Source: Escherichia coli (GTDB taxonomy: Bacteria > Pseudomonadota > Gammaproteobacteria > Enterobacterales > Enterobacteriaceae). From it: 64,000 nucleotides of DNA. The first letter of the stretch is position 1; each line of letters opens with the position of its first letter. The notes beneath the pieces are model-generated. The model saw nothing but the letters and a program-made list of their open reading frames with translations. It made no database searches and had not been told where the DNA came from. Below, piece by piece: positions 27,940 to 28,469 of this stretch. A program made the position numbers and the translations under genes. The stretch lies in assembly GCF_030013205.1 (NCBI RefSeq), contig NZ_CP122648.1; one strand, 5' to 3'.

Positions 27940-28152
27940 ATGGTCGGAGGGAATACCCGAAGGCCGGATGTGGAAAGGCCCCGGAAAACATTTTTGTTTA
28001 ACCGAGGCCCTGACCATACAACCTTCGCAAGTCGTAGGTTAGCGCCTCTCCAACAAAGGAGCAAGCGCTATGTCGCAAAAATCGCTTATGGCCATCACGT
28101 TCTGCGTGACGGTAATCCTCATCATCTGGATGCTGCACGGTTCGCTGTGTGA
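27940..28152 (+). CDS. mok-like overlapping reading frame
   Basis: 70-aa frame starting upstream of and overlapping the Hok-like ORF in another frame, as mok does for hok. Confidence 0.35.
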   Translation: MVGGNTRRPDVERPRKTFLFNRGPDHTTFASRRLAPLQQRSKRYVAKIAYGHHVLRDGNPHHLDAARFAV

Positions 28153-28210
28153 AATACGGATGAGCTTCTGGGGAGCGGAGTTTGCGGCGTTCTTACAGTG
28201 TAAGCAGTAA
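28070..28210 (+). CDS. Hok/Gef-family type I toxin (46 aa)
   Basis: MSQKSLMAITFCVTVILIIWMLHGSLCEIRMSFWGAEFAAFLQCKQ: TM segment, SLCEI motif and AAFL motif as in Hok/Gef; AAAGGA RBS; below the track length cutoff. Confidence 0.75.
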   Translation: MSQKSLMAITFCVTVILIIWMLHGSLCEIRMSFWGAEFAAFLQCKQ

Positions 28211-28302
28211 GGAAACCGCGACGGGGGAGCAATCCCCCGTCAATCGGTTGCCAGGGTAAAGGTCGAAAAGGCACCCTATTTCCAGTTGACGTGAACAACA
28301 AG

Positions 28303-28335
28303 CCCGCAGCGTAAAAACTGCGGGTTTTCTTTTTG
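28303..28335 (+). terminator. rho-independent terminator
   Basis: cccgcagcgtaaaaactgcggg followed by ttttcttttt. Confidence 0.5.
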
Positions 28336-28367
28336 GTTCCCTCACTCATGAGGAAACCAAAAACAAA

Positions 28368-28396
28368 GCCCACAGCATAGAAGCTGTGGGCTTTTT
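28368..28396 (+). terminator. rho-independent terminator
   Basis: gcccacagcatagaagctgtgggc followed by tttttg. Confidence 0.5.
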
Positions 28397-28469
28397 GCAT
28401 TCAAAGATGGACGTTATATGGACACTTAAAAATAAAATCCATTTATTTTCAAATGATTAAACCTCTACT

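What the first reader, a model, noticed from the sequence alone, without database searches (positions are those of the whole stretch)
27940..28400. Hok/Mok-like type I toxin locus at the prophage right end, missed by the ORF track
A 46-aa ORF (28070..28210) encodes a peptide with a TM helix followed by SLCEI and AAFL motifs, as in Hok/Gef toxins. A 70-aa frame (27940..28152) overlaps its start in another reading frame, as mok does in hok/sok loci. Hairpins and two terminators follow downstream. An antisense Sok-like RNA would be expected opposite the 27.95-28.07 kb leader. The locus sits between ogr and the attR repeat, so it is phage cargo.
Basis: partly seen in the sequence, partly recalled or inferred. 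Interest (0 to 1): 0.55.

Follow-up and report, generated by a model that had tools for sequence, protein, structure and literature searches.

The report
Known Hok toxin locus in prophage remnant
The small gene is a real, intact member of the well-known Hok family of membrane-killing toxins with its antisense-RNA antidote, carried at the end of a broken P2-type prophage in E. coli. It is already annotated and catalogued, so the finding is correct but ordinary, except that the proposed 'mok' helper frame is not conserved.

Summary
The 46-aa ORF (28070..28210) is a genuine Hok/Gef toxin gene: Pfam HOK_GEF E 3.7e-7 and PHROG 251 E 3e-23. Identical DNA in RefSeq is annotated 'Hok/Gef family protein' WP_000078911.1. 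The clade is cluster 72 of a 2026 Hok catalogue, in which a peptide 2 residues away was cloned and counted among the toxic homologs.

The surrounding ~450 nt is colinear with hok/sok loci. It has:
- a sigma-70-like promoter, with a predicted mRNA of 27924-28336;
- a 15-bp 5'-3' closing helix of the tac/fbi type;
- a hairpin that sequesters the hok ribosome-binding site;
- a conserved 3' hairpin and a terminator;
- a minus-strand promoter whose -10 (TAACCT) is identical to the mutationally validated sokW -10, predicting a ~57-nt Sok-like RNA (about 28029 to 27972).

The locus lies inside a 21-kb defective P88/P2-type prophage bounded by a 20-bp repeat in the serS terminator.

The 70-aa 'mok' frame is not supported. 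The canonical mok start is ATA. The frame reads through hok in only 19 of 56 close homologs and is absent in most of the seven Salmonella/Klebsiella loci.

Verdict: already known and of low interest. The one open point is how hok translation is unlocked without a conserved mok.

The parts
27889..27917 (+). Predicted hok promoter: -35 TTGCCG (27889-94), 17-nt spacer, -10 TAGATT (27912-17)
   Evidence: Read from the sequence. It scores 8 of 12 against consensus, below the scanner's 9 of 12 cut-off. The TTGxxx-17-TAxAxT positions are kept in the 57 homologs even where the flanking sequence differs. It is colinear with the hokC, hokB and hokW -10 boxes.
27924..28336 (+). Predicted full-length hok mRNA (~413 nt)
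   Evidence: The 5' end GGGUGCC aligns with the hokB/hokC/hokW leaders and with position 1 of the Rfam RF01794 model. MFE is -172.8 kcal/mol, z -5.96. The ends are inferred, not mapped.
27924..27938 (+). tac-like 5' element (GGGUGCCUUUCGGCU)
   Evidence: Pairs with 28261-28276 in the MFE and in the RNAalifold consensus. 91% of cells are paired over 56 distinct sequences.
27940..28152 (+).
27968..28042 (+). Short upstream ORF (24 aa here). Its ATG is invariant in the 57 E. coli-type homologs, but its length varies from 1 to 79 aa and the ATG is absent in Salmonella/Klebsiella members
   Evidence: Its role is unknown.
27972..28029 (-). Predicted Sok-like antisense RNA (~57 nt): a short 5' segment followed by a terminator-like hairpin (reverse complement of 27977-28009) and a CCUUUCC tail
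   Evidence: Position is inferred from the promoter and from the K-12 sokC/sokB annotation geometry. Fold is -24.3 kcal/mol, z -3.69. Not shown to be expressed.
28036..28064 (-). Predicted Sok-like promoter: -35 TTGCTC (reverse complement of 28059-64), 17-nt spacer, -10 TAACCT (reverse complement of 28036-41)
   Evidence: The -10 is identical to that of sokW, which was mutated (TAACCT to GAGCCG) in the 'pro-less' construct that lost antitoxin activity. This was deduced from primers YO-421/422 in PMC8621323 compared with the Min27 sequence. AGGTTA is invariant in 56 of 57 homologs. The match to consensus is weak (6 of 12).
28004..28048 (+). sokT-like hairpin (GAGGC/GCCUC plus CUGACC/GGUUAG). 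It contains ATA (28016-18) where canonical loci have the mok ATG
   Evidence: 98.5% paired.
28040..28070 (+). Anti-SD hairpin that sequesters the hok SD (AAGGAG, 28056-61) and the A of the AUG. It is mutually exclusive with the 3' arm of the sokT-like hairpin
   Evidence: 95.3% paired; only GC/GU changes.
28070..28210 (+). hok-family toxin gene, 46 aa
   Evidence: Cluster 72 in bioRxiv 10.1101/2025.08.07.668861.
28220..28241 (+). Conserved 3' hairpin just after the stop codon
   Evidence: 99.6% paired, with two pairs showing compensatory changes (GC 40 / AU 15; AU 43 / CG 7 / GC 5).
28261..28276 (+). fbi-like 3' element (GGUCG A AAAGGCACCC)
   Evidence: Homology between different genomic contexts ends just after it.
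28300..28336 (+). Intrinsic terminator of the hok transcript in P88-type contexts
28365..28400 (.). Second, bidirectional-looking terminator hairpin. Probably not part of the module
   Evidence: It lies beyond the region conserved among contexts.
28471..28490 (.). attR core (the attL copy is at 7420-7439), equal to the serS terminator

Best explanation
This is an intact hok/sok-type type I toxin-antitoxin module of the 46-aa Hok clade (PHROG 251; 'cluster 72' of the 2026 Hok catalogue). It is carried as a moron between the ogr-like gene and attR of a defective P88/P2-type prophage integrated in the serS terminator of E. coli.

Likely mechanism:
1. A weak sigma-70 promoter (TTGCCG-17-TAGATT) makes a ~413-nt mRNA starting near 27924. 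This is inferred from colinearity with other hok loci.
2. The mRNA is closed by a 15-bp helix between its 5' end and 28261-28276 (tac/fbi type). The hok ribosome-binding site and AUG are buried in an 11-bp hairpin, so the full-length RNA is translationally inert. The structures are predicted and conserved. Inertness is inferred from R1 hok.
3. A constitutive ~57-nt antisense RNA, from TTGCTC-17-TAACCT on the minus strand, pairs with 27972-28028 of the leader. That keeps the 3' arm GCGCCUCUCC free to hold the anti-SD hairpin and probably triggers RNase III cleavage. This is inferred from sokW and Sok.
4. When the antisense RNA disappears, through loss of the DNA or transcription shut-off, the 3'-trimmed mRNA refolds and Hok is made. 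Hok inserts into the inner membrane and depolarises or kills the cell. Toxicity of a peptide 2 residues different is reported; the rest is inferred.

Unlike R1, this clade has no conserved mok reading frame, so the step that opens the hok ribosome-binding site is unresolved.

The biological role is not determined. Retention of the prophage remnant by post-segregational killing is the simplest reading. The alternatives are lysis assistance, as for hokW, or phage exclusion.
For: Protein:
- Pfam HOK_GEF E 3.7e-7 and PHROG 251 'MokW-like host killing' E 3.1e-23.
- 43% identity to K-12 HokA, E 7e-11.
- The residues invariant across the Hok paralogs compared (C12, T14, L26, E28, E37, A39) are present.
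- RefSeq annotates the identical DNA as 'Hok/Gef family protein'.
- 66 protein clusters from E. coli, Shigella, Salmonella and Klebsiella match. All that carry a source name are called Hok/Gef family (one HokA), and the majority are 46 aa.
- hok is intact in 57 of 57 distinct homologs.
- The catalogue preprint lists 72_1621 (44 of 46 residues identical) and 72_1589 among the 45 cloned homologs, of which only three others were non-toxic.

RNA:
- Rfam RF01794 matches the + strand 27924-28080, E 8.6e-8.
- The locus is colinear with the hokB, hokC, hokW and R1-type loci.
- The 5'-3' helix appears in the MFE, z -5.96, and in the RNAalifold consensus.
- The named helices are 95.8% paired, against 35-54% when the partners are slid.
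- The anti-SD hairpin is 95.3% paired.
- The Sok -10 is identical to the validated sokW -10.
- The energy to open the translation-initiation region is 15-16 kcal/mol for the full-length RNA. It drops to 9.6-13 after 3' truncation and returns to ~16 when the Sok target is blocked.

Context.
Against: - There are no expression data for either RNA, and all ends are inferred.
- Both promoters are weak by consensus (8 of 12 and 6 of 12) and the scanner reported none.
- The Rfam score is below gathering (41.4 against 59).
- NCBIfam scores are far below the curated cut-offs (35.1 against 89 and 23.7 against 73).
- The closing helix shows only GC/GU changes and no double compensatory changes within this closely related set.
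- The structures tested were derived from this sequence, which favours them.
- The predicted ribosome-binding site stays strongly structured (at least 9.6 kcal/mol to open) in every modelled state.
- No conserved mok is present, yet in R1 mok translation up to the hok SD is required (PMC9841398). How or whether Hok is ever translated from this mRNA is therefore open.
Confidence: 0.85

Rival explanations
1. Canonical three-gene hok/mok/sok locus. The 70-aa frame 27940..28152 is mok, its translation is coupled to hok, and Sok acts by blocking mok initiation.
For: - The frame exists, overlaps the hok start, and happens to be 70 codons long, like R1 mok.
- Its ATG is present in 55 of 57 close homologs.
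- In R1, mok translation up to the hok SD is required (PMC9841398), and the hok SD here is strongly sequestered, so some unwinding activity would be useful.
Against: - The ATG sits 16 nt from the predicted 5' end inside the closing-helix region, with no SD.
- It lies outside the predicted Sok target (27972-28028).
- The canonical mok start is ATA.
- Only 19 of 56 close homologs have any ATG-started ORF reading through the hok AUG, and 31 of 56 have none with ATG, GTG or TTG.
- Of the seven Salmonella/Klebsiella loci, three have no ORF reaching the hok region (L131, L134b, L135). One has only a 19-aa TTG ORF across the hok AUG (L133). All lack this ATG.
- There is no family hit and no similarity to MokW.
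Confidence: 0.08
2. Silent relic. The toxin ORF and RNA elements are preserved by recent descent, but the module is not expressed or is not able to kill. This would resemble most chromosomal hok loci of K-12, and it would merely hitch-hike in a decaying prophage.
For: - The prophage is defective: 21 kb against 35.8 kb for P88, with truncated replication and capsid genes.
- The K-12 hokA and hokC loci are flanked or interrupted by IS elements.
- The ribosome-binding site is strongly structured in all modelled states.
- There is no mok.
- Both promoters are weak.
Against: - hok is kept at exactly 46 codons in homologs down to 61% protein identity across three genera and in different genomic contexts.
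- The promoter positions, closing helix, anti-SD hairpin and Sok -10 are retained where the flanks differ.
- The 3' hairpin shows compensatory changes.
- Cluster-72 peptides were toxic when expressed.
Confidence: 0.12
3. The same module, but its selected role is phage-centred rather than addiction. It might help lysis and release on induction, as reported for hokW-sokW of Sp5, or it might exclude superinfecting phages by abortive infection, as reported for R1 hok/sok against T4.
For: - hokW-sokW doubles Sp5 release after mitomycin C (PMC8621323).
- The clade sits in intact phages (P88, Chuche, Stx phages).
- hok genes are about 4-fold enriched in prophages.
Against: - This copy sits in a remnant that cannot make particles.
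- There is no PADLOC hit.
- The catalogue paper reports no enrichment near defence systems (section heading).
- HokW belongs to a different Hok clade: 30% identity.
Confidence: 0.3

Closest known systems
Hok 'cluster 72' (72_1621 and 72_1589) of Escalera-Maurer et al., bioRxiv 10.1101/2025.08.07.668861; PHROG 251; RefSeq WP_000078911.1
   Same: This is the same clade. The catalogue peptide 72_1621 differs at 2 of 46 residues, and the RefSeq protein is encoded by identical DNA. It has the same prophage association, and the clade representatives were reported toxic on induction.
   Different: Nothing material at the protein level. Those sources describe only the CDS. The authors state that they did not analyse mok, Sok or mRNA ends.
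hokW-sokW of Sakai prophage 5 / Stx2 phages (PMC8621323)
   Same: It is a prophage-borne hok/sok module with experimental proof of a type I TA. The leader is colinear, the Sok -10 hexamer (TAACCT) is identical, the -35 is similar, and the 5' GGGUGC matches a 3' GCACCC complement.
   Different: HokW is 51 aa, belongs to the HokC/Gef clade and is only 30% identical. hokW has an annotated in-frame mokW starting at the canonical ATG, where this locus has ATA. The hok SD is displaced by an ~8-nt deletion relative to canonical loci. The host phage is lambdoid rather than P2-type.
hok/mok/sok of plasmid R1 (parB). Source: established literature and PMC9841398
   Same: The overall design is the same: a stable folded toxin mRNA with 5'-3' pairing, a short antisense RNA from a promoter inside the leader, and a ~50-aa membrane toxin with the C..T...LCE...E.AAF pattern.
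   Different: It is 30% identical in the alignment (39% over a 31-residue tblastn stretch). R1 needs mok translation up to the hok SD, whereas no conserved mok exists here. It is plasmid-borne rather than prophage-borne. The Rfam model built on canonical leaders scores below gathering here.
HokA of E. coli K-12 (b4455)
   Same: It is the closest K-12 paralog: 43% identity, a shared W in the TM segment and a shared AAFL.CK C-terminus. It is also the best NCBIfam model.
   Different: It scores below the HokA equivalog cut-off (35.1 against 89 bits), so this is not HokA. The K-12 locus is disrupted by IS150.

Membership tests
Hok/Gef toxin family (Pfam PF01848) | Significant match to the family profile | tested here: met
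   Pfam HOK_GEF i-E 3.7e-7, 30.1 bits, covering model positions 5-42 of 42. PHROG 251 E 3.1e-23.
Hok/Gef toxin family (Pfam PF01848) | ~50-aa peptide with an N-terminal TM segment and the conserved C/T, L-C-E and E residues (C16, T18, L30, C31, E32, E41 in the catalogue logo) | tested here: met
   C12, T14, L26, C27, E28 and E37 align with those positions in HokA, B, C, W and R1.
Hok/Gef toxin family (Pfam PF01848) | Toxicity on expression (membrane depolarisation) | not testable with these tools
   Toxicity is reported for 72_1621 (2 aa different) and 72_1589 in a preprint. This exact peptide was not tested.
NCBIfam HokA equivalog (NF007290) / Hok family subfamily model (NF007279) | Score at or above the curated cut-off | tested here: not met
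   35.1 bits against a cut-off of 89, and 23.7 against 73. It is a separate clade, neither HokA nor the canonical Hok subfamily.
hok/sok type I TA locus (R1 paradigm) | hok-leader RNA family (Rfam RF01794) at gathering score | tested here: not met
   41.4 bits against gathering 59. The E-value is nevertheless 8.6e-8, over the full model 1-157, on the sense strand.
hok/sok type I TA locus (R1 paradigm) | Long-range 5'-3' pairing (tac/fbi) closing the full-length mRNA | tested here: met
   The helix is predicted in the MFE and in the alignment consensus. 91% of cells are paired in 56 sequences, with only one-sided changes. This is in silico only.
hok/sok type I TA locus (R1 paradigm) | Antisense Sok gene with its promoter inside the leader and its terminator hairpin opposite the leader | tested here: inconclusive
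   The promoter is positionally homologous, with a -10 identical to the validated sokW -10 and invariant in 56 of 57 homologs. The predicted RNA folds with z -3.69. Expression cannot be tested here, and the consensus match is weak.
hok/sok type I TA locus (R1 paradigm) | mok reading frame that starts within the Sok target and is translated across the hok SD | tested here: not met
   The canonical start is ATA. 31 of 56 close homologs have no ORF through the hok AUG. Three of the seven Salmonella/Klebsiella loci have no such ORF and all seven lack both upstream ATGs.
P2-type (Peduoviridae, Xuanwuvirus/P88-like) prophage cargo | Located inside the integrated element, between the last phage gene and attR | tested here: met
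   The att core repeats and the K-12 empty site establish the boundaries. The same position holds in P88 and related phages at 94-95% identity.

The most novel reading that the evidence does not exclude
The 46-aa Hok clade (cluster 72) may be a naturally mok-less hok/sok variant. Hok translation would be gated directly by a three-way RNA switch rather than through a leader ORF. The three elements are the 5'-3' closing helix, the sokT-like hairpin, and an anti-SD hairpin that shares the GCGCCUCUCC segment. Alternatively, variable short upstream ORFs ending just before the SD could do the gating. Sok would then act by forcing the anti-SD hairpin rather than by blocking mok initiation.
Probability: 0.3. 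Interest if true: 0.4.

Novelty: already known. Interest (0 to 1): 0.15.

Why it matters
As a finding it adds little. The gene is annotated in RefSeq and in phage records, has its own PHROG, and belongs to a clade that was recently catalogued and tested for toxicity. It matters for annotation in two ways: the window carries a potentially lethal small gene with an unannotated antisense antidote, and that gene may help a defective prophage persist next to serS.

The one scientifically useful point is that this abundant clade has matches in 1556 of 5426 complete E. coli genomes yet lacks the mok frame that R1 hok needs. It is therefore a convenient natural test of whether mok coupling is general in the hok family.

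Tried and rejected
A back-translated DNA pattern was used instead.
- The promoter scanner found no promoter. Both candidates fall below its 9 of 12 threshold, so they rest on positional homology rather than on the scan.
- My first structure string was mis-registered for the closing helix and the 3' hairpin, so those two helices are meaningless. Only the anti-SD helix of that call is valid.
- P(unpaired) of the SD did not discriminate between states, because a 3-bp mini-hairpin replaces the long one. Opening energies were used instead. They give only a modest 3-6 kcal/mol effect, which I treat as weak support.
- Both the 27940 frame and the 27968 short ORF were considered as mok substitutes. 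Neither is conserved in length or, outside E. coli-type loci, in presence.
- PADLOC gave no hit.
- No second hok locus exists in the window.
- My first estimate of the Sok start (28034) was revised to about 28028-29 after fixing the -10 position.

Full report
**What is there.** The window is E. coli chromosome. ORF 28070..28210 encodes the 46-aa peptide MSQKSLMAITFCVTVILIIWMLHGSLCEIRMSFWGAEFAAFLQCKQ.
- It matches Pfam HOK_GEF (E 3.7e-7) and PHROG 251 'MokW-like host killing' (E 3.1e-23).
- It matches the NCBIfam HokA and Hok models only below their curated cut-offs.
- It is 43% identical to K-12 HokA.
- It carries the residues that are invariant across HokA, B, C, W and R1-type Hok.
- The same 621 nt occur at 100% identity in several complete E. 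coli genomes, where PGAP annotates exactly this CDS as 'Hok/Gef family protein' WP_000078911.1.
- Phage P88 and relatives carry it at 94-95% identity, annotated 'MokW-like host killing'.
- 1556 of 5426 complete E. coli genomes have a match to the locus.

**Context.**
- A 20-bp direct repeat (AAAGCGCCCGCAGGCGCTTT) lies at 7420-7439 and 28471-28490.
- The sequence left of the first copy and right of the second together reconstitute the uninterrupted K-12 serS-dmsA spacer. The repeat is therefore the att core within the serS terminator.
- The 21-kb insert has a P2-type integrase, cox, tail genes and ogr. Its replication and capsid genes are truncated and fused, and most head, lysis and baseplate genes are missing. 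P88 itself is 35.8 kb.

**Anatomy compared with known hok/sok loci.**
- Alignment with K-12 hokB and hokC (with their annotated sokB and sokC), an R1-type plasmid locus and hokW of phage Min27 shows colinearity from the -10 box to the 3' complement of the 5' end.
- The predicted promoter is TTGCCG-17-TAGATT (27889-27917). The TTGxxx-17-TAxAxT pattern holds in 57 homologs even where the surrounding sequence is unrelated.
- Rfam RF01794 is named 'sok', but its consensus runs from GGGUGC to AUG, so it is the sense-strand leader. It matches 27924-28080 over its full length with E 8.6e-8 but below gathering: 41.4 against 59 bits.
- The 413-nt RNA 27924-28336 folds at -172.8 kcal/mol (z -5.96). A 15-bp helix joins 27924-27938 to 28261-28276, which is the tac/fbi arrangement.
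- On 56 distinct homologs from viral contigs, four structural elements are 95.8% paired overall, against 35-54% when the partners are slid. These elements are the closing helix, the two stems of the sokT-like hairpin (28004-28048) and the 3' hairpin (28220-28241).
- The 3' hairpin has two pairs with compensatory changes. The closing helix shows only GC/GU changes.
- The hok SD (AAGGAG, 28056-61) and the A of the AUG are buried in an 11-bp hairpin (28040-28070) that is 95.3% conserved as pairs.
- Homology between different genomic contexts stops just after the fbi-like GGCACCC, and the terminators downstream differ. The first terminator (28300-28336) serves this copy, and the second (28365-28394) is probably unrelated.

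**Antisense RNA.**
- On the minus strand, TTGCTC (reverse complement of 28059-64), a 17-nt spacer and TAACCT (reverse complement of 28036-41) occupy the position of the Sok promoters of the reference loci.
- The -10 hexamer is identical to that of sokW. Comparing primers YO-421/422 of PMC8621323 with the Min27 sequence shows that the 'pro-less' mutant, which lost antitoxin activity, changed exactly this hexamer.
- AGGTTA is invariant in 56 of 57 homologs.
- By the geometry of the annotated sokB and sokC, the RNA would start near 28028-29 and end near 27972, giving ~57 nt. It folds into a short 5' segment plus a terminator-like hairpin (z -3.69).
- By consensus the promoter is weak (6 of 12) and nothing here shows expression.

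**The mok claim.**
- The 70-aa frame is real in this copy, but it fails the comparative test.
- Where R1, hokB, hokC and hokW have the mok ATG, this locus has ATA and the Stx-phage relative has ATC/ATA.
- Among 56 distinct close homologs, only 19 have an ATG-started ORF that reads through the hok AUG. It starts at the 27940-equivalent in 14 and at the 27968-equivalent in 5, depending on indels. 31 have no such ORF with any start codon.
- Seven Salmonella and Klebsiella loci of the same 46-aa clade lack both upstream ATGs and show no consistent overlapping ORF.
- The frame has no family hit and no similarity to MokW.
- By contrast, hok is intact in all variants: 46 aa in 56 and 47 aa in one.
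- In R1, mok translation up to the hok SD is required (PMC9841398), so this clade must differ at that step.
- In silico, the cost of opening the hok initiation region is 15-16 kcal/mol in the full-length RNA. It falls to 9.6-13 after 3' truncation to 28245-28255 and returns to ~16 when the Sok target is blocked.
- This fits a direct switch between the sokT-like and anti-SD hairpins, which share GCGCCUCUCC. The effect is modest and the region remains structured, so I treat it as a hypothesis.

**What is already known.**
- A 2026 preprint (10.1101/2025.08.07.668861) catalogued 1264 Hok peptides and found about 4-fold enrichment in prophages.
- Its supplementary files contain this clade as cluster 72. 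72_1621 (2 residues from the window peptide) and 72_1589 (the Stx-phage type) were cloned. The text names only three other constructs as non-toxic.
- The authors state that they did not analyse mok, Sok or mRNA ends.
- hokW-sokW of Sp5, from a different Hok clade, is an experimentally shown prophage type I TA that aids phage release.

**Verdict.**
The Hok and Sok interpretation is supported and the mok part is not.
- The locus is an already known, annotated kind of element in an ordinary place. Interest is low.
- The residual question is how a widespread Hok clade without a conserved mok unlocks translation.

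Noticed in passing
window 7440-28470: The integrated element is a 21-kb defective P2/P88-type prophage. The integrase, cox, tail genes and ogr are present. A truncated replication gene abuts truncated capsid-scaffold and major-capsid fragments (about window 14680-15115), and most head, lysis and baseplate genes are missing.
   Followed up: partly
window 7314-7448 and 28471-28490: The Rfam STnc130 hit (136 bits) covers the dmsA-proximal side of the serS-dmsA spacer and ends in the att core. The core, which is the serS terminator, is duplicated at attR, where a 20-nt partial STnc130 match appears. 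Integration therefore separates serS from the rest of this sRNA locus.
   Followed up: partly
window 13751-13948: isrK (64 bits) and C4 antisense RNA (80 bits) hits lie side by side inside the prophage remnant. They overlap a region that RefSeq annotates as a truncated 'ash family protein'. This is a P1/P4-type immunity RNA cassette in a P2-type element.
   Followed up: no
window 26786-27469: A 227-aa hypothetical ORF with a hydrophobic N-terminus is inserted between an 801-bp VgrG/gpD-like gene (the corresponding P88 tail gene is 1101 bp) and ogr. It is another possible moron, with no family assigned in RefSeq.
   Followed up: no
window 19023-19586 (minus strand): A serine acetyltransferase gene is embedded next to the tail-fibre assembly gene of the prophage. 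It is a likely cargo gene.
   Followed up: no
L134 1501-1641 and 1991-2131; L135 1501-1641 and 1995-2135: In Salmonella the 46-aa hok module occurs as tandem duplicates about 490 nt apart, each with its own leader and 3' elements. One copy has a Sok -10 of the R1 type (TATCCT) instead of TAACCT.
   Followed up: partly
window 27924-28080: The Rfam family RF01794, named 'sok antitoxin', is modelled on the sense strand. Its consensus starts with the hok mRNA 5' end GGGUGC and ends at the hok AUG, so hits mark the hok leader rather than the antisense RNA.
   Followed up: yes
L007 (IncFII plasmid) against the K-12 loci L005 and L006: The mok frame relative to hok differs between canonical loci. It is in-frame in K-12 mokC, in Min27 mokW and in this R1-type plasmid variant, and out of frame in mokB. 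This is consistent with the Mok peptide sequence being unimportant.
   Followed up: partly
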